64,000 bases of DNA, taken from assembly GCA_902800325.1 (NCBI GenBank), contig CADCDW010000003.1, positions 13,452 to 77,451 of the forward strand. The letters are read 5' to 3'. The notes beneath the pieces are model-generated. The model was not told the origin of the DNA and made no database searches. It was given only the letters and a program-made list of their open reading frames with translations. The DNA comes from an uncultured Lachnospiraceae bacterium. GTDB taxonomy: Bacteria > Bacillota > Clostridia > Lachnospirales > Lachnospiraceae. The position numbers and the translations under genes were made by a program. Shown piece after piece: positions 2,075 through 59,931 of this stretch. Position 1 is the stretch's first letter, and every line of letters starts with the position of its first letter.

Positions 2075-3241
2075 TTAATTATCGCCTTCATCGTAATTAT
2101 CATCCTCATAGTTATTGTCCTCATCATAACCATCATCATAATTACCGTCTTCATCATACTCATCATCAAGTCTGAATTCTATCTCGTCATCATCATATTT
2201 AGAAAGACCTGCCTGCGATTCACTCTTTATATCAATCTTATATCCTGTAAGTCTTGCAGCAAGTCTTGCATTCTGTCCCTCTTTACCGATTGCAAGAGAA
2301 AGCTGATAATCAGGAACAACAACCTTCGCACTCTTTTCATCAACATCCACATCAACCGAAACAACTTTTGAAGGACTGAGCGCATTTTCGATAAATACTG
2401 CCGGATCTTCATCCCAGTTAATTATATCAATTTTCTCGCCCTTCAAATCATCAACTATAGTATTTACCCTTGAACCATTTAATCCTACGCAGGCTCCAAC
2501 CGGATCCACATTCGGATCATTGGACCATACAGCAATCTTAGATCTTGAACCGGGCTCTCTTGAAATGCTCTTAATCTCAACGGTACCATCAGCAACCTCA
2601 GCAACCTCACGTTCAAAAAGCTTTCTTACCAAATCCTTGTGTGTTCTGGAAACAACAATTTTGAAGCCACCCTTCTGATTCTTCTTAACCTCAACGACAT
2701 AAAGCTTAATTCTATCTCCGCGCTTATAATACTCACCTTTAACCTGTTCATTTTCACTTAATATAGCATCAGTTCTTTCATCAAGGCTGACACTTATATT
2801 GTTGCCAACATATCTTTGAACGACACCTGTAATTATATCCTTTTCTTTACATACAAAGTGATCGTATATGGCATCTCTCTCGCCTTCTTTTATAGCCTGA
2901 ACTATTATACTTCTTGCTTTCTGTGCTGCAATTCTTCCAAATTCCATAGTCTTAATCTCAAACTTAATTTCGTCACCGACAGCAGCATCATCTTTCATGG
3001 CCTTTGCCTGAACCAGAGCAATCTCATTATCTTCATTTTCCACTTCTTCAACTACAGTTTTCTTTTGGAATAAAGCAATCTCTCCTGTTTCGCGATTCAT
3101 AGATACTTCTATAATTGCATCCTTACCAAAATCCTTTTCACAAGCAGATAAAAGAGAAGCTTCTATTTTCTCCATAATTTTATCTTTGCTTATACCTTTT
3201 TCCTTCTCCAATTGATTAAGTGCGTCAATAATTTCTGACAT
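2075..3241 (-). CDS. nusA: Transcription termination/antitermination factor NusA
   Basis: FGRIAAQKA, S1 domain, SREPGSRSKIAV, DPVGACVG and LSLAIGKEGQNARLAARLTG KH motifs; acidic D/Y-rich tail. Confidence 0.98.
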   Translation of the reverse strand: MSEIIDALNQLEKEKGISKDKIMEKIEASLLSACEKDFGKDAIIEVSMNRETGEIALFQKKTVVEEVENEDNEIALVQAKAMKDDAAVGDEIKFEIKTMEFGRIAAQKARSIIVQAIKEGERDAIYDHFVCKEKDIITGVVQRYVGNNISVSLDERTDAILSENEQVKGEYYKRGDRIKLYVVEVKKNQKGGFKIVVSRTHKDLVRKLFEREVAEVADGTVEIKSISREPGSRSKIAVWSNDPNVDPVGACVGLNGSRVNTIVDDLKGEKIDIINWDEDPAVFIENALSPSKVVSVDVDVDEKSAKVVVPDYQLSLAIGKEGQNARLAARLTGYKIDIKSESQAGLSKYDDDEIEFRLDDEYDEDGNYDDGYDEDNNYEDDNYDEGDN

Positions 3242-53682: not shown

Positions 53683-56600
53683 ATGAACAGATTAGGAATT
53701 GATATAGGTTCAACCACAGTAAAGGTTGCAATTATAGATGAATCACACAATATACTTTTTTCTGAATACAAGAGACATTTTGCCAATATCAAGGAAACAT
53801 TAAAGGAACTACTTGAAAATGCAAAAGAAAAGCTTGGCGATTTAAATGTAGCCCCAACCATAACCGGTTCAGGCGGACTTGCTCTTGCCAATGTCATAGG
53901 TGTACCATTTGAGCAGGAAGTTATCTGCGTAACCGACGCACTAAAGGACTATGCTCCTCAAACTGATGTTGCTATAGAACTTGGTGGTGAGGATGCAAAA
54001 ATTATATATTTTACGAACGGTGTCGAGCAGCGTATGAACGGAGTATGTGCAGGAGGTACCGGTTCCTTTATCGATCAGATGGCATCACTTCTTCAAACAG
54101 ATGCCATGGGACTTAATACATATGCCAGAGACTATGACACTATCTATCCAATTGCCGCAAGATGTGGTGTATTTGCCAAAACAGATATACAGCCACTCAT
54201 AAATGAAGGTGCAACCAAGCCAAACCTTGCCGCATCAATCTTTCAGGCAGTCGTCAATCAGACCATAAGTGGTCTTGCCTGCGGTAAACCTATAAAGGGA
54301 AATGTTGCTTTTCTTGGTGGTCCTCTTCATTTTCTGGATCAGCTTAAGGAAGCTTTTATAAGAACTCTTAATTTAACTGATGACAGTGTAATCGCACCAT
54401 CACATTCACACCTTTTTGCTGCTGTAGGTGCTGCACTTCAGGCCAAAGAAGATATTAATTTTTCTCTCACTGATTTAAGCGGGAAGCTGACTGATGATCT
54501 AAAGTTTTCAGTTGATGTAGACAGACTTCCTCCACTTTTTGCTTCTGAGGAAGATTACGCCAAATTCATCAAAAAGCAGTCAAAATACCATGTTAAAAGA
54601 GCTGACCTTGCTACATACAAAGGCAAATGTTATCTTGGCGTAGATGCAGGTTCAACCACAACTAAGGTTGCTCTGGTCGGCGAAGACGGAGCATTATTAT
54701 ATGATTTTTACAGCAGTAACAACGGTAGTCCTTTAAAAACCACTATCCGCGCCTTAAAGGATATATTTAAAAAGCTTCCGGATGGTGTTGAAATCGCATC
54801 AGCATGTTCAACCGGATATGGAGAAGCTTTGATTAAATCTGCTCTTATGCTTGATCATGGCGAGGTTGAAACCATAGCCCACTATACCGCTGCTGCTTTC
54901 TTTGATCCTGATGTGGATTGTATCCTTGATATAGGTGGTCAGGATATGAAATGTATAAAAATTAAAAACGAAGTAGTTGACAACGTTATGCTCAACGAAG
55001 CATGTTCTTCAGGCTGTGGTTCATTTATAGAAACCTTTGCAAAATCATTAAATTATGAAATCAAGGATTTTGCCAAAATAGCTCTTTTTGCAGAACATCC
55101 TATAGACCTCGGTTCAAGATGTACTGTATTTATGAATTCAAAGGTTAAACAGGCTCAAAAAGAAGGTGCATCCGTAGCCGATATATCTGCCGGACTTGCA
55201 TATTCGGTTATAAAAAATGCGCTTCTTAAAGTTATAAAACTTACCGACCCTAAATCACTCGGTAAAAATATAGTTGTTCAGGGCGGAACTTTTTATAACG
55301 ATGCAGTACTAAGAAGCTTTGAACTTATATCCGGCCGCGAAGCCATACGTCCGGATATAGCAGGTATCATGGGTGCATTTGGAGCCGCTCTTATCGCAAG
55401 AGACAGATATGAAGAAGGCGCAAAGACGACCATGCTTTCCCGCGAGGATATAGAAAACCTTACATATGAAACCAGCATGGCGAGATGTAAAGGCTGTACC
55501 AACAATTGTCTTCTTACCATCAATAAATTTTCAGGCGGAAGACGTTTTATTTCAGGAAACAGATGCGAAAAAGGTCTTGGCTTGAAGAAAAATGCCAACA
55601 ATGTACCTAATTTATTTGAATATAAATTCAACCGTTTATTCCGGTATGAACCATTAAGTGAAGCCGAAGCCTCTCGTGGAACAATCGGAGTACCAAGAGT
55701 ACTCAATATGTACGAAAACTATCCGTTCTGGTTTACATTTTTAACCAGGCTCGGTTACAGGGTCGTACTCTCTCCAAAATCCTCTCGTGATATCTATACA
55801 CTTGGTATAGAGTCCATTCCAAGCGAGTCAGAGTGTTATCCTGCAAAAATTGCACACGGTCATGTTATGTGGTTACTCAAGCAGGGAATCAAGACAATTT
55901 TCTATCCTTGTATACCATATGAAAGAAACGAAACACCGGATGCTAACAATCACTACAACTGTCCTATCGTTACTTCATATGCAGAAAATATTAAAAATAA
56001 TATGGAAGAATTAAGTGATCCTGATACAACCTATATAAGACCGTTTCTTTCTCTCGACAACAAGCAGGCGCTTAAAGAACGTCTGATGCGAGAATTTAAG
56101 AAATATACTGATGTAACCATGCAGGAGATATCCGATGCGGTCGATGCAGCTTATATAGAAGCAGATGCAGTGAAAGCCGATATTAAAAACAAGGGTGATG
56201 AAACTATTAAGTACCTGGAAGAAAATGATAAAATCGGTATAGTACTTGCCGGTCGTCCTTATCACATAGACCCTGAGATTAACCACGGTCTTCCTGAACT
56301 TATCAATTCATTTGATATAGCTGTGCTTACTGAAGATTCTGTGGCTCACTTAGGTGAAGTAGAAAGGCCTCTTATAGTATCAGATCAGTGGATGTATCAC
56401 TCCAGACTATACAAAGCCGCAAACTATGTAAAGACGAGCAAAAATCTTGAACTTATACAGCTCAACTCTTTCGGTTGCGGTCTTGACGCCGTTACAACCG
56501 ATTGTGTAAATGATATACTTACCAATTCAGGCAAAATTTATACGGTACTTAAGATAGACGAGGTCAGCAACTTAGGTGCTGCAAGAATACGTATACGTTC

Positions 56601-57915
56601 TTTGATAAGTGCTGTAAATGTAAGACGTAAACGCCACTTTGTTCCTTGCCCTGTATCAAGCGCAATCAACAGAGTTGAATTTACCCAGGACATGAAGGAC
56701 TACACTGTTCTTGTACCTCAGATGTCTCCTATTCATTTCAATATTCTTGAACCGGCATTTAGCCAAATGGGGCTTAATATAGTTATGCTTCCTGACGCTA
56801 ACAAGGAAGTTGTTGACACAGGATTAAAATATGTAAATAATGATGCATGCTACCCTTCACTTATAGTAGTCGGACAGCTTATGTATGCTATCAATTCAGG
56901 AAAATATGATGTAAATAAGCTTGCAGTTGTTATGACTCAGACCGGCGGCGGTTGCCGAGCTACCAATTATGTTGGTTTTATAAGACGTGCGCTCGCAAAA
57001 GCCGGTTACGGGCAGATACCTGTTATAGCTCTAAGTGTTCAGGGTTTTGAACAAAACTCCGGCTTTAAATTTACGATTAAAACAGTCAAGCTTGCTTTAC
57101 AGGCTATTATATATGGTGATTTATTTATGAGAGTCTTATACCGAACAAGACCTTATGAAAAAGTTAAAGGCTCTGCCGATAAACTTCACAAGAAATGGGA
57201 AAAAATTTGTATAAAGAGTATTAAAGATGGTGGTCGAGGATACAAAAAAATTATCAAGGGTATCATTCATGACTTTGACACTCTTCCTCTTAACGAAGAA
57301 GAAAGACGTCCACGTGTAGGAATAGTTGGTGAAATTCTTGTCAAGTTCCTTCCTTCGGCTAACAATCACCTTGTTGAGCTTCTCGAATCAGAAGGTGCTG
57401 AAGCAGTTATGCCTGATTTACTTGATTTCTTCATGTACTGCTTCTACAACAACAATTACAAGTATGAATTCTTAGGCAAATCCAAGAGTTCCGCCAAAAA
57501 GGCCAATCTTGGTATATGGGCACTGGAAGTTCTTCGTAAACCTTTACGCGATGAACTCAGAAAGAGCAACCGTTTTGAACCACCTGTACATATAACCACG
57601 CTTGCAGATTATGCCAGACCTATCGTATCAATCGGCAACCAGACAGGAGAAGGCTGGTTCTTAACCGGTGAAATGGTTGAACTTATCAAGAGTGGTGCCG
57701 GCAACATAGTATGTTGTCAGCCATTTGCATGTCTTCCTAACCACATAGTCGGCAAGGGTGTTATCAAAGAATTAAGGAAATCATATCCTGAAGCCAACAT
57801 CGTAGCAATAGACTACGATCCGGGTGCTTCCGAAGTAAATCAGGTCAACCGTATCAAACTCATGCTTGCAACTGCGCGCAAAAACATGCAGAACACCGAT
57901 GAAAAAGCTGTATAA
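53683..57915 (+). CDS. 2-hydroxyacyl-CoA dehydratase activase-related multidomain protein (two BadF/BadG ASKHA ATPase modules plus DUF2229-like modules)
   Basis: [10 protein letters not shown] and [10 protein letters not shown]; ELGGEDAK and DIGGQDMK; [10 protein letters not shown] and NEACSSGCG Fe-S Cys motifs; [15 protein letters not shown]. Confidence 0.9.
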
Positions 57916-57931
57916 TCCCCTCTCCCACGTT

Positions 57932-58621
57932 AAACTTCGGTTTCACGCATGATGACAGACATAGATATTCCTTTTATCAGTAGATTTAATTCTCTTATGT
58001 GACATCAAAGAAAAAAGGTGGTATTACAACGCGCCATCGATTTGTTAAATCAGCGTACTCGCACCTTTGAAATTCGCACGAACCCGAAGAACTCGCTTCG
58101 CTCAAACACTTCGGTTTCTGAGCGAATTTCTACAAGTGCTCGTTGCTGATTTGACACAAATCGGGCTAAATGTTGTAACACCGCCTTTTTCTTTTTCTGT
58201 CACTATAAATTTTCGGACAATCTCCTGATAAAAGGAATATCTATGCCTGTAGCTTAAAGCCACGCTAAATAGCGCGGCTTTAAGCTGTGGGTATCTGCTT
58301 TACCACTTAAATACAACTTCACACCTTAATAAACTAAATTCAGGAAAGTATATGAAAAGGCTGATACAACAACATTTTGTCCGATTTGCGTTAAATCAAA
58401 AGCAAGAATCCGTATATATTCGCTCAGAAATCGAGCTGTTTGAGCGAAGCGAGTTCTCGATTTCGTGCGAAGATAAAGGATTTGAGCTTATTGATTTAGC
58501 AAATTGATGACACGTTGTGTATCAGCCTTATTCATATACTTTCCTATTAAGAAACTTCATGGTGTGAAGTCATATTTAAGTGGTAAGCAGATACCCACCA
58601 TCATGCGTGAAACCGAAGTTT
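57932..58621. repeat. 690-bp composite palindromic element: 23-bp terminal IR enclosing two long hairpin units and a central hairpin
   Basis: Perfect IR at 57932-57954/58599-58621; unit A 57955-58250; central hairpin 58251-58286; unit B 58287-58598; identical 20-nt core at 58089-58108 (+) and 58437-58456 (-); no ORF in the track. Confidence 0.9.
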
Positions 58622-58638
58622 GATGCGATGGACAAGGA

Positions 58639-59931
58639 CTAATTTTTCTTTCCGAGTTTTACTACAATTGTATCCTCTACATATTCGTTGTCTTTCATAT
58701 ATTTTACAGTTACTTCTATTTTTTCACCGGCTTTGTAATATTCAAGCATATCCACAAGACCTTCAGCCGTAGATACTGTCTGACCGTCAAATTTTGTTAT
58801 GATGTAGTTTTTCTTTATGCCAGCTTTTTGGGCTGCAGAACCGTCTATTACCTCTGATACGAGGACTCCGGTAGGGATACCATATAACTCTGATGCATCA
58901 GCGGTGACAGTGCCGCATTTGATACCGAGACTTGCCTGATCGCGTTCATCAACCTTTTCTCTGGTTTTTCTTGAAACCATACCGTCGATTATTTCCTCAA
59001 CCTCACTTATAGGAATAGCATAGCCCATTCCCTCAACTTCTGTTGAAGCATATTTCGATGAATTGATACCAACAAGTTCTCCCTTCATATTGAGCAGTGC
59101 ACCACCGCTGTTTCCCGGATTTATGGCCGCATCAGTTTGGATAAGCGGTAAATCATTAGTATCGGTCGTTCTTTCTTTTGCACTTACGATACCTGTTGTA
59201 ACGGACTGTCCATAGCCAAGTGCATTACCTATAGCTACTACCTGCTCTCCAACCTTAAGTTCATTGGAATCACCTATGTTGGCTACTTTTATATTTTCTT
59301 TAGTACTACCCGAAATATCTTCAAGAGGAACTACCACTATAGCCAGATCATAACTTGAATCAACACTTTTAACTTTTGCATCATAGCTTTCACCGTCATT
59401 AAAAACTACAGAAACAGTCTCTGCCGATGCTACAACATGATTATTGGTTACAATTAAAAGTTCAGTATCATTTTTTCCTATGATAATACCGGAGCCTGCT
59501 CCTTCAGTCTCATATTCGTATGTTCCGAACATCCCCTGGTTTATCTGCTCAACACCTTTTACGTTTATCGCAACTATAGATGGCATTACATTTTCAGCAA
59601 TTTTTGAAACATCAAGAGCGCCACCCGATGCATAATTATTATCAACTGATGATGTTGTCTGGATTATCTCATCGGTTGTCGTTTTTTCGTCATCATTATT
59701 AGCTTTTGATTCTGTTGTTTCAACATCTGCAGTTTCTAAACCTTCCAATGTTTCACTAACAATCTTGCTTATATTCTTCTTCTCATTTACACCGTTTAGC
59801 TTATCCGCTGCAACAAGATTAAATACTCCTCCAGCTACGCCTCCAAATACTGCTGCTGTTGTAACTACCGCTACAGTTCTCTTAAAAAATCCGCCTTTTT
59901 TGCTTGTTTTCATTTCTGTCTCATGTTTCAT
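58639..59931 (-). CDS. htrA: HtrA/DegP-family serine protease with PDZ domain
   Basis: VTNNHVV (His), YDLAIV (Asp), AINPGNSGG (Ser), C-terminal PDZ, N-terminal TM anchor. Confidence 0.95.
   Translation of the reverse strand: MKHETEMKTSKKGGFFKRTVAVVTTAAVFGGVAGGVFNLVAADKLNGVNEKKNISKIVSETLEGLETADVETTESKANNDDEKTTTDEIIQTTSSVDNNYASGGALDVSKIAENVMPSIVAINVKGVEQINQGMFGTYEYETEGAGSGIIIGKNDTELLIVTNNHVVASAETVSVVFNDGESYDAKVKSVDSSYDLAIVVVPLEDISGSTKENIKVANIGDSNELKVGEQVVAIGNALGYGQSVTTGIVSAKERTTDTNDLPLIQTDAAINPGNSGGALLNMKGELVGINSSKYASTEVEGMGYAIPISEVEEIIDGMVSRKTREKVDERDQASLGIKCGTVTADASELYGIPTGVLVSEVIDGSAAQKAGIKKNYIITKFDGQTVSTAEGLVDMLEYYKAGEKIEVTVKYMKDNEYVEDTIVVKLGKKN

What the first reader, a model, noticed from the sequence alone, without database searches (positions are those of the whole stretch)
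58023..58520. Two diverged, inverted copies of one hairpin unit with an identical 20-nt apical core and compensatory stem changes
Seen: GAACTCGCTTCGCTCAAACA occurs at 58089-58108 (+) and 58437-58456 (-), each at the tip of its long hairpin. The closing stems differ but both pair perfectly (CCGAAG/CTTCGG in A, ATCGAG/CTCGAT in B). Flanks are homologous (TTCGCACGAA...TTTCTGAGCGAAT; ACAACGCGCCATCGATTTGTTAAATCA versus ACAACGTGTCATCAATTTGCTAAATCA), whereas the basal stems are unrelated in sequence. An invariant loop on covarying stems is the signature of a structure-plus-sequence recognition site. Because the cores are inverted, A and B could also pair with each other, giving an alternative fold. 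Inference: members of a dispersed repeat or RNA family recognised by a specific protein.
Basis: partly seen in the sequence, partly recalled or inferred. Interest (0 to 1): 0.68.

Follow-up and report, generated by a model that had tools for sequence, protein, structure and literature searches.

The report
Pan-bacterial capped hairpin inside a MITE
The two hairpins are real. They are the two halves of a roughly 690-bp non-coding, transposon-like palindromic repeat lying between two convergent genes, and their shared 20-base tip is a structured cap that recurs almost unchanged on unrelated stems in at least eleven bacterial phyla and matches no Rfam family.

Summary
Observation confirmed. GAACTCGCTTCGCTCAAACA occurs only at 58089-58108(+) and 58437-58456(-), each at the tip of a long hairpin. 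The two inner hairpins share 65 pairs: 14 changed on both sides, none broken.

The surroundings change the picture. Region 57932-58621 is one composite: 23-bp perfect terminal inverted repeats, hairpin domain A, a central terminator-like hairpin, and inverted domain B. The same head-to-head composite (600-700 bp, similar ends) recurs in rumen metagenomes. The apical ~140 nt of A and B are 10-20x over-represented in rumen DNA. It is therefore a MITE/REP-like dispersed repeat, sitting between convergent genes.

The surprise is the cap. It also occurs inside an unrelated MITE in a Bacteroidaceae genome and in the tips of Vibrio integron attC sites.

Copies found through their flanks alone show the cap is structured: UGUYUGA-[GC-(GNA/GNNA)-GC]-GAGUUY, with one compensatory G-C to A-U change. 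Rfam 15, annotated collections and literature searches gave no match.

Local role is probably 3'-UTR terminator hairpins. What recognises the cap is unknown.

The parts
53683..57915 (+). Flanking gene, 1410 aa CoA-enzyme activase (BcrAD_BadFG + DUF2229). It reads towards the element.
   Evidence: ORF list; Pfam.
57932..57954 (.). Left terminal inverted repeat of the composite, AAACTTCGGTTTCACGCATGATG, preceded by T (TA at 57931-57932). It is the 5' arm of the apparent outer stem 'P1'.
   Evidence: 23/23 complementary to 58599-58621. The same kind of terminus, (C)TAAAYTTCTGTTTCTCGCAG, bounds the 600-700-bp composites in rumen loci L167, L168, L175 and L176.
57955..58250 (.). Domain A. It consists of a locus-specific outer stem (57955-57986/58219-58250), an A-tract/T-tract stem (57999-58030/58172-58203) and an inner hairpin.
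   Evidence: Inverted repeats I3 and I4; folds.
58034..58176 (-). Dispersed-repeat core of A. It carries a GUCAA-type bulge region, the TTCGCTCAGAAA / TTCGTGCGAA box pair and the cap. The strand given is the better-folding one.
   Evidence: Depth is 10-20x that of the flanks in four rumen DNA metagenomes, and many 85-95% identical contigs run on into unrelated DNA. RNA contigs cover it.
58089..58108 (-).
   Evidence: cap structure from variants.
58187..58200 (+). T-rich tract directly after hairpin A on the + strand (TTTTTCTTTTTCTG). Probable termination point of the activase transcript.
   Evidence: Sequence. RNA contigs of three metatranscriptomes end at 58196-58215, and none covers 58260-58323.
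58251..58286 (.). Central hairpin AGCTTAAAGCCACGC-TAAATA-GCGCGGCTTTAAGCT: an A-tract, a GC stem and a T-tract. It is shared by both units and looks like a bidirectional terminator.
   Evidence: I7. A homologous hairpin lies at the same place in rumen relatives (AGCTTAAAAC-AGCAC..GTGCT-GTTTTAAGCT) and in Variovorax.
58287..58598 (.). Domain B, an inverted homologue of A. Outer stems are 58287-58325/58561-58598 and 58342-58368/58518-58545.
58376..58541 (+). Dispersed-repeat core of B.
   Evidence: depth; contigs that run on into unrelated DNA; RNA contig 58324-58561.
58437..58456 (+). Cap of B, TGTTTGAGCGAAGCGAGTTC on the + strand.
58599..58621 (.). Right terminal inverted repeat, CATCATGCGTGAAACCGAAGTTT, followed by G (TG where the relatives have TA).
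58639..59931 (-). Flanking gene, 430 aa HtrA-like serine protease (Trypsin_2 + PDZ). It reads towards the element.

Best explanation
Region 57932-58621 is one non-coding, non-autonomous, MITE-like repeat element inserted between two convergent genes. Its 23-bp terminal inverted repeats make the apparent outer stem. Inside it are two head-to-head copies of a hairpin module, placed around a central terminator-like hairpin.

Shown:
- the composite architecture, and its recurrence with similar termini in other genomic contexts;
- the high copy number of the hairpin cores in rumen DNA;
- the presence of the hairpins in rumen RNA;
- covariation of the stems;
- the near-invariance and internal fold of the cap, UGUYUGA-[GC-(GNA or GNNA)-GC]-GAGUUY;
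- the occurrence of the same cap on unrelated stems in at least 11 phyla, in an unrelated Bacteroidaceae MITE and in the tips of Vibrio attC sites.

Inferred:
- The element was spread in trans by a DDE transposase. Its termini start with TA, as in IS630/mariner-type MITEs.
- At this locus each flanking gene reads into the nearest hairpin. That hairpin, with its T-tract, terminates and protects the 3' end of the mRNA.
- The cap is kept by selection because it is a compact, hyper-stable tip: tandem G.A pairs next to a 2-bp helix closed by a GNA/GNRA-type loop. It would nucleate folding of the very long hairpin in a single strand (RNA or ssDNA). It would also most likely serve as the docking site for a conserved factor that unrelated mobile elements exploit.

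The identity of that factor is unknown.
For: Composite and termini:
- Nested repeats abut with no unpaired bases.
- An alignment of 19 rumen copies shows the central hairpin, outer stem, inner hairpin and 'tail' are all parts of one unit.
- 8 of 12 rumen loci have an inverted partner cap about 295 nt away.
- The composites are 600-700 bp with 15-27-bp TIRs beginning (C)TAAAYTT.

Repeat nature:
- Depth over 58034-58176 and 58376-58541 is 10-20x that of the flanks.
- 21 metagenome loci were found through flanks alone.
- The Variovorax unit is a high-copy repeat with many different flanks.
- A Bacteroidaceae MAG carries a ~560-bp MITE with different TIRs and TA flanks.

No coding capacity and no linked gene.

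Breadth: more than 120 loci, with about 1 expected by chance in 596 Gb. The phyla are read from the record titles.

Covariation.

Cap structure:
- N11 takes all four bases.
- GAA, GTA, GAAA, GATA and GTAA loops occur, and one G8-C14 to A8-U14 double change.
- Y20 keeps pairing with the G two bases 5' of the cap.

Context:
- Of 63 low-GC loci, 24 are convergent, 32 co-directional and 7 divergent.
- The gene next to the terminus reads into the element in 14 of 16 cases.

RNA:
- Hairpins A and B appear as contigs in four rumen metatranscriptomes, while the flanking CDSs are mostly absent.
- The contigs covering A end just after the T-tract.
- No canonical short terminator exists in the intergenic region.
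Against: - No empty site and no target-site duplication has been demonstrated. The window's right end has TG, not TA.
- No autonomous element with the same TIRs was found.
- In Variovorax the repeated units lack TA ends, and at least one pair sits at an orthologous position in several species. Mobilisation therefore need not be the same everywhere.
- Only 23 of 105 family members have a clear U-tract after the hairpin.
- In co-directional intergenic regions the element shows no orientation preference, 16:16. That is odd for an orientation-specific RNA role.
- The strand that folds better (94 of 109 copies, median 9.7 kcal/mol) is the opposite of the strand the flanking genes would transcribe first in the window.
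- The RNA evidence consists of low-depth contigs without strand information and could include DNA.
- Nothing here explains why 17-20 bases should be identical across phyla.
Confidence: 0.55

Rival explanations
1. The module is a single-stranded-DNA recombination or transposition site, in the manner of REP/RAYT, IS200/IS605 ends or integron attC sites. The long hairpin folds in ssDNA during replication or transfer. The cap, which contains the classic hyper-stable d(GCGAAGC)/d(GCGAAAGC) mini-hairpin, is the recognition or nucleation site for a HUH or tyrosine recombinase encoded elsewhere.
For: - The cap sits in the variable terminal structure of bona fide attC sites in Vibrio and Aliivibrio cassette arrays. 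Neighbouring attC sites carry related caps.
- It also sits in a short hairpin near the end of inovirus (ssDNA phage) prophages.
- The loops seen are GNA and GNNA closed by C-G on a G-C pair, exactly the DNA mini-hairpin type (the stability of that mini-hairpin is from my own knowledge).
- Folding asymmetry is independent of the direction of neighbouring genes. This fits selection on a single-stranded intermediate rather than on host transcripts.
- The hairpins are nested inside other hairpins' tips.
- The stems are very long and nearly perfect, which is unusual for RNA structure.
Against: - No recombinase or HUH gene was found near any of about 170 loci.
- The window lacks attC core sites.
- There is no orientation bias relative to co-directional genes, a rough proxy for replication direction. 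IS200/IS605 elements are strongly biased (own knowledge).
- The hairpins are present in RNA.
- U-tracts follow the hairpin in a subset of copies.
Confidence: 0.22
2. A and B are genes for free-standing structured RNAs. They would be a convergent pair ending at the shared central terminator, or a divergent pair. The cap and the conserved 5'-side bulges would bind a specific RNA-binding protein.
For: - RNA contigs match the hairpins but not the neighbouring coding sequences.
- The stems covary and G.U-type asymmetry is present.
- In Proteobacteria, Bacteroidota, Nitrospirota and Patescibacteria the hairpin is followed by further conserved modules: a U-tract, a YUUUUG-loop-CAAAAR hairpin, and UCGCC-x-GGCGAAA-x' with covarying x/x'.
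- The unit ends in TAAACT, a possible -10 box.
Against: - The element is multi-copy and carried as cargo of MITEs and attC sites.
- Promoter matches are not above shuffles.
- Helices of 23-39 perfect base pairs are atypical for functional RNAs.
- There is no Rfam family.
- Orientation is random in co-directional spacers.
Confidence: 0.15
3. This is a chance palindrome or an assembly or adapter artefact with no biological meaning.
For: Many database hits lie about 20 nt from contig ends, as an artefact might.
Against: - Contig ends at repeats and palindromes are expected from assemblers.
- The motif occurs in finished RefSeq chromosomes, and at an orthologous position in several Variovorax species.
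- It shows structured natural variation.
- It is present in many independent DNA and RNA runs.
- The fold z-scores are -31 to -37.
Confidence: 0.01

Closest known systems
MITEs with structured interiors, for example Neisseria Correia/NEMIS elements and IS630/Tc1-mariner-derived MITEs
   Same: - Short, non-coding and multi-copy, with terminal inverted repeats.
- Termini start with TA.
- Almost wholly palindromic.
- Sits at gene 3' ends and is co-transcribed with the neighbours, with terminator-like behaviour.
   Different: - No target duplication or parent IS has been shown here.
- The interior is a head-to-head pair of 200-300-nt hairpins.
- The hairpin cap is shared with elements that have completely different termini, in other phyla. 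To my knowledge that is not a property of any described MITE family.
REP / BIME / REPIN elements (mobilised by RAYT)
   Same: - Intergenic, high-copy palindromes, often as inverted doublets.
- Found in operon spacers and at 3' ends (in Variovorax, inside ABC-transporter operons).
- Proposed roles in mRNA stabilisation and termination.
   Different: - REPs are 20-40 nt, species-specific, and tagged by GTAG/CGTC at the foot of the stem.
- Here the hairpins are 110-350 nt and the foot is variable.
- The conserved part is the tip, and it is conserved across phyla.
- No RAYT gene was seen nearby.
Integron attC sites
   Same: - Imperfect long hairpins whose structure, not sequence, is conserved.
- In Vibrio the cap lies in the variable terminal structure of real attC sites.
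   Different: The window copies have no R''/R' core sites (RYYYAAC...GTTRRRY), no cassette array and no integrase. In attC sites the tip is the least conserved part.
Rho-independent (bidirectional) terminators
   Same: A-tract, stem, T-tract architecture in the inner hairpins and the central hairpin. Located between convergent genes, with RNA contigs ending at the T-tract.
   Different: The stems are an order of magnitude longer. The tip is a conserved 20-22 nt structured cap instead of a tetraloop. Most family members lack a clear U-tract.
d(GCGAAGC)/d(GCGAAAGC) hyper-stable mini-hairpins of ssDNA phage origins (phiX174, G4); recalled, not tested here
   Same: The centre of the cap is GC-GNA-GC or GC-GNNA-GC.
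   Different: Here the mini-hairpin is embedded in conserved flanks, UGUYUGA...GAGUUY, on top of a long helix in chromosomal repeats.

Membership tests
MITE (non-autonomous DDE transposon, IS630/mariner-like) | Terminal inverted repeats | tested here: met
   23/23 bp at 57932-57954 / 58599-58621. Similar 15-27-bp termini in rumen composites.
MITE (non-autonomous DDE transposon, IS630/mariner-like) | Small and non-coding | tested here: met
   690 bp with only spurious ORFs of 53 aa or less.
MITE (non-autonomous DDE transposon, IS630/mariner-like) | Many copies in different genomic contexts | tested here: met
   Copy number within this one genome is not known; the window holds one composite.
MITE (non-autonomous DDE transposon, IS630/mariner-like) | Target-site duplication (TA), or an empty site in a relative | tested here: inconclusive
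   TA at both ends in L167, L168, L175 and L176. The window has TA on the left and TG on the right. The TA may belong to the TIR, and no empty site was recovered.
MITE (non-autonomous DDE transposon, IS630/mariner-like) | A parent IS with the same termini | tested here: not met
   None in the plasmid collection or in about 180 fetched loci. The search was shallow.
REP/BIME/REPIN | 20-40-nt GC-rich palindrome with a GTAG/CGTC tag | tested here: not met
   Hairpins have a median length of 110 nt (range 29-358). There is no tag at the foot, and the conserved part is the tip.
REP/BIME/REPIN | Association with a RAYT gene | tested here: inconclusive
   No shared neighbouring protein in 128 + 21 loci. 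A single distant RAYT per genome could not be looked for.
Integron attC | R''/L''...L'/R' core sites, a cassette array and an integrase | tested here: not met
   Absent in the window. Present only around the Vibrio copies.
Intrinsic terminator | Stable hairpin directly followed by a U-tract, with transcript 3' ends there | tested here: inconclusive
   A T-tract lies at 58187-58200, and RNA contigs end at 58196-58215. The simple scanner finds none because its loop limit is 8. Family-wide, 23 of 105 copies have 5 or more T in the 10 nt after the hairpin, against about 10 in controls.
Any Rfam 15 family | Covariance-model match | tested here: not met
   Nothing meaningful at E <= 1 in the window region. 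Nothing at the gathering threshold in 20 diverse loci. Nothing at E <= 1-10 in Variovorax, Haemophilus, Flavobacterium and Lachnospiraceae units.

The most novel reading that the evidence does not exclude
The 20-22-nt cap is a universal, structured ligand. It would be a docking or nucleation site for a factor conserved across bacteria, for example part of the transcription termination/elongation machinery or of the ssDNA replication-restart/priming machinery. Unrelated selfish elements (MITEs with different termini, REP-like repeats, integron attC sites, inoviruses) would have captured it independently. That would make it a new, pan-bacterial class of cis element that Rfam and the repeat catalogues have missed.
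Probability: 0.25. Interest if true: 0.85.

Novelty: new variant of a known kind. Interest (0 to 1): 0.62.

Why it matters
Palindromic intergenic repeats are usually regarded as species-specific junk or local regulators. Here one 20-base structured tip is held almost constant on completely different stems. It occurs from Lachnospiraceae to Variovorax, Flavobacterium, Nitrospirales, Acidobacteriota and candidate-phyla bacteria, and it is carried by mobile elements of different kinds.

That degree of conservation calls for a conserved partner or a physical property under strong selection. Finding it could reveal:
- a general handle that mobile DNA uses on host machinery;
- a portable, very strong terminator or stabiliser module;
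- a simple marker for annotating a large class of repeats that break metagenome assemblies.

Tried and rejected
- Rfam in six scans: no family.
- Literature searches for the sequence in DNA and RNA spelling, for GCGAAGC, for concept terms and for REP papers: nothing relevant.
- E. coli genomes: only chance 22-24-nt matches.
- Plasmid and phage collections: copies exist but are unannotated. The 18-nt match in Enterococcus Inc18 plasmids is not in a hairpin tip and is probably chance.
- A linked protein gene: none. The 2.4-kb segment flanked by inverted copies in L094 encodes no transposase.
- Base-pairing of the cap with rRNA or tRNA of an E. coli rrn operon: at most 10-11 pairs including G.U, not significant.
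- The idea that all copies are attC sites: rejected. The core sites are absent, or in the wrong order, outside Vibrio.
- The idea that the outer stem P1 and the four-way junction are a selected RNA fold: rejected in favour of terminal inverted repeats of two head-to-head units.
- A U.A-U triple helix between the U-tract and the downstream hairpin in non-Firmicute units: attractive in a few cases but inconclusive in a systematic test (12 for, 16 against, 20 ties).
- A K-turn reading of the cap: the position -1 pair would be G.G, so it was not pursued.
- Resemblance of the cap to a mycobacterial NusA-binding RNA and to boxA: rests on memory only and could not be verified.

Full report
**1. The observation**

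The 20-mer GAACTCGCTTCGCTCAAACA occurs at 58089-58108 (+) and 58437-58456 (-) and nowhere else in the window, even with three mismatches allowed. None was expected in shuffles.

The copies lie in a 723-bp spacer between two convergent genes:
- a 1410-aa CoA-enzyme activase ending at 57915;
- a 430-aa HtrA-like protease ending at 58639.

The spacer is extraordinarily self-complementary. The repeats nest and abut without a single unpaired base:
- 57932-57954 pairs with 58599-58621 (23/23);
- 57955-57986 pairs with 58219-58250;
- 57999-58030 pairs with 58172-58203;
- 58251-58267 pairs with 58270-58286;
- 58287-58325 pairs with 58561-58598;
- 58342-58368 pairs with 58518-58545.

The fold energy is -347 (+) and -360 (-) kcal/mol, against about -160 for shuffles.

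A(+) is homologous to B(-). On the two inner hairpins, 65 consensus pairs include 14 double compensatory changes, 6 one-sided compatible changes and no broken pair.

**2. The cap is not local**

About one is expected by chance. By record title the carriers include:
- Bacillota (Lachnospiraceae, Hungatella, Clostridiaceae, Anaerovoracaceae);
- Bacteroidota;
- beta- and gamma-Proteobacteria (Variovorax, Polaromonas, Vibrio, Haemophilus, Methylophaga and others);
- Acidobacteriota, Nitrospirota, Desulfobacterota, Myxococcota;
- Patescibacteria, Melainabacteria, Lentisphaeria and Armatimonadota.

In nearly all of them the 20-mer is the tip of a hairpin whose stem is specific to the lineage.

In the commonest register the closing pair is G(-2)-C20, with one unpaired base (58 of 115 copies). 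For 35 distinct sequences in that register I tested an 11-bp helix:
- 86% of cells are paired, against 48% in shuffles;
- 162 cells changed on both sides, against 54 in shuffles;
- the covariation score is 0.97, against 0.20 in shuffles and 0.11-0.25 when the partner is slid.

These sequences were chosen for having at least six pairs, so pairedness is partly built in. The variety of pair types at every position is not.

**3. The cap is structured, and has a preferred strand**

In 94 of 109 copies the strand reading UGUUUGAGCGAAGCGAGUUC folds better than its complement, by a median of 9.7 kcal/mol. The cap itself explains only about 2 kcal/mol of that.

Extra copies and a degenerate scan show variation at only three places: Y4, N11 (all four bases) and Y20.

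Those searches fix the cap by construction. I therefore searched a metagenome collection using only the conserved boxes that flank the closing stem in the window (TTCGCTCAGAAA N28-36 TTCGTGCGAA). The 21 loci recovered carry these caps:
- UGUYUGAGCG-(A, U, AA, AU or UA)-AGCGAGUUY;
- two with GAGCAAAGC;
- one with GAACGAAGUGAG, which is a G8-C14 to A8-U14 double change.

The centre is therefore a 2-bp helix closed by a GNA or GNNA loop. It is flanked by GA...GA, which could form tandem sheared pairs, and by U-rich arms. Y20 keeps pairing with a G.

**4. What the window element is**

Three lines of evidence show it is a dispersed repeat.
- In four rumen DNA metagenomes, depth over 58034-58176 and 58376-58541 is 10-20 times that of the flanks. 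Many contigs at 85-95% identity run on into unrelated sequence. The basal stems and the central hairpin have single-copy depth.
- An alignment of 19 rumen copies shows the unit is larger than the hairpin. It comprises a central hairpin of terminator type (AGCTTAAAAC-AGCAC...GTGCT-GTTTTAAGCT), an outer stem, the inner capped hairpin, and a conserved 'tail' CTGCGAGAAACAGAAGTTTA.
- Eight of twelve loci have an inverted partner cap about 295 nt away. The resulting 600-700-bp composites end in 15-27-bp inverted repeats beginning (C)TAAAYTT.

The window's 'outer stem' is exactly this pair of termini. The 'four-way junction' is the consequence of two head-to-head units sharing one palindromic central hairpin. 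The same head-to-head pair around a GC hairpin exists in Variovorax, where the ~210-nt unit is a high-copy repeat with many different flanks.

In a Bacteroidaceae MAG the capped hairpin is the cargo of a ~560-bp MITE with quite different termini (TTGGTGTCCGGTAAAA) and TA flanks.

In Vibrio and Aliivibrio it forms the variable tip of integron attC sites, next to attC sites with related caps.

No protein gene is consistently nearby.

**5. What it probably does here**

Genomic context:
- In 63 low-GC loci the element lies between convergent genes 24 times, between co-directional genes 32 times (16 in each orientation), and between divergent genes 7 times.
- In the rumen subfamily the gene next to a terminus reads into the element in 14 of 16 cases.

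The spacer in the window has no ordinary short terminator. However, hairpin A is followed on the + strand by TTTTTCTTTTTCTG (58187-58200). Hairpin B is followed on the - strand by a weaker T-rich run.

RNA evidence comes from four rumen metatranscriptomes:
- Contigs cover 57932/57936/57966 to 58140/58196/58215, and 58324-58561.
- None covers the central hairpin.
- The flanking coding sequences are mostly absent.

This fits transcripts of the two genes ending at, and being protected by, the first long hairpin they meet.

The evidence is weak in three ways. Depth is low, contigs carry no strand information, and DNA contamination cannot be excluded. Family-wide, only 23 of 105 copies have a clear U-tract.

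**6. What remains unexplained**

The local role does not explain why 17-20 bases are the same in eleven phyla. It also does not explain why the better-folding strand is independent of the direction of neighbouring genes.

Two readings compete.
- The cap acts in RNA, as a hyper-stable nucleation tip or a protein site.
- It acts in single-stranded DNA. The GC-GNA-GC centre is the classic hyper-stable DNA mini-hairpin (own knowledge). The attC and inovirus occurrences point to ssDNA biology.

I could not find a partner. The cap is not complementary to E. coli rRNA or the operon's tRNAs. E. coli lacks the family altogether.

**7. Comparison with known families**

The element works like a MITE/REP-type palindromic repeat that doubles as a terminator. 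Correia elements and REP/BIME elements are the closest analogues.

Membership of any described family fails on a defining feature, or could not be shown:
- no GTAG tag and a very different size (REP);
- no core sites (attC);
- no parent IS and no proven target duplication (MITE);
- no Rfam match in six scans.

Searches of about 8 million papers for the sequence found nothing.

I therefore rate the window feature a new variant of a known kind. The cross-phylum structured cap is the part that deserves follow-up.

**8. Limits**
- The phylum count comes from record titles, many of them MAGs.
- Copy number in this particular genome is unknown.
- Mobility is inferred from repeat structure, not from an empty site.
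- All functional statements about the cap are inference.

Noticed in passing
L066 1150-1260, 1715-1825, 4945-5075; L029 2270-2400; L071 around 6511: In Vibrio and Aliivibrio integron cassette arrays, some attC sites have a perfect hairpin plus this cap as their variable terminal structure. Neighbouring attC sites carry related caps (ACTGTGGAGCGAAGCGAAAC, TTTTGTGAGGAACGAACA). Other attC sites in the same arrays have unrelated tips.
   Followed up: partly
L122-L128, L149, L153 (for example L127 6850-7040): Inovirus-like prophages (Rep_trans, Zot) carry the cap in a short 5-bp hairpin, CAGTG...CACTG. It lies where sequence conserved among the phages gives way to variable sequence. It may mark an attachment site or origin.
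   Followed up: partly
L005 2040-2150, L041 1850-1930 (- strand), L107 195-240, L013, L022, L011, L112: Outside Firmicutes the capped hairpin is followed by a U-rich tract, then a YUUUUG-loop-CAAAAR hairpin (often CCUAC...GUAGG), then UCGCC-x-GGCGAAA-x' with covarying x/x'. In a few taxa the U-tract mirrors the purine arm as a triple helix would require. A systematic test was inconclusive.
   Followed up: partly
window 57932 / 58622 (run X28): One metatranscriptome contig joins 58784..58622 to 57932..58140 on opposite strands through the 23-nt terminal repeat. That repeat is shorter than what I believe is the assembler's word length of 31 (recalled, not confirmed by the tool output). If so, the element also exists in the opposite orientation relative to its flanks, either by inversion between the terminal repeats or by insertion the other way round in another strain.
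   Followed up: no
L131 2300-2660 (Butyrivibrio fibrisolvens D1 plasmid pNP243): A ~290-nt near-perfect hairpin (z = -16) whose tip is a three-way junction. The cap motif comes directly after the 5' arm and is followed by two small extra hairpins, as if about 68 nt had been inserted 3' of the cap. It lies between a hypothetical gene and a TIR-domain gene.
   Followed up: no
L060/L070 1-310, L107 7-313, L010, L036, L015, L017: A Bacteroidaceae MAG (JAZNEI01) and its relatives carry a ~560-bp MITE with TIR TTGGTGTCCGGTAAAA and TA flanks, and with the capped hairpin as internal cargo. The copies break the assembly at the hairpin tip.
   Followed up: partly
L051 5532, 6337, 6632; L030 7075 and 7191: Direct tandem arrays of the unit in a Flavobacterium MAG and in Parabacteroides chinchillae.
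   Followed up: no
L094 264-2693: A 2.7-kb Gastranaerophilales contig is bounded by two inverted copies of the capped hairpin. They enclose three small genes (AbrB-like, HAD-like, membrane protein), in a cassette-like arrangement without a transposase.
   Followed up: partly
window 53683-53900 (N-terminus of the 1410-aa protein): A weak Pfam hit to DEDD_Tnp_IS110 (36 bits) beside BcrAD_BadFG and ROK. I read it as cross-matching between related ATPase/RNase-H-like folds, not as a transposase.
   Followed up: no
L129 2600-2660, L130 about 3001-3018: Enterococcus Inc18 plasmids hold 18 nt of the cap sequence in the leader between the cop and rep genes, but not at a hairpin tip. It is probably chance.
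   Followed up: partly
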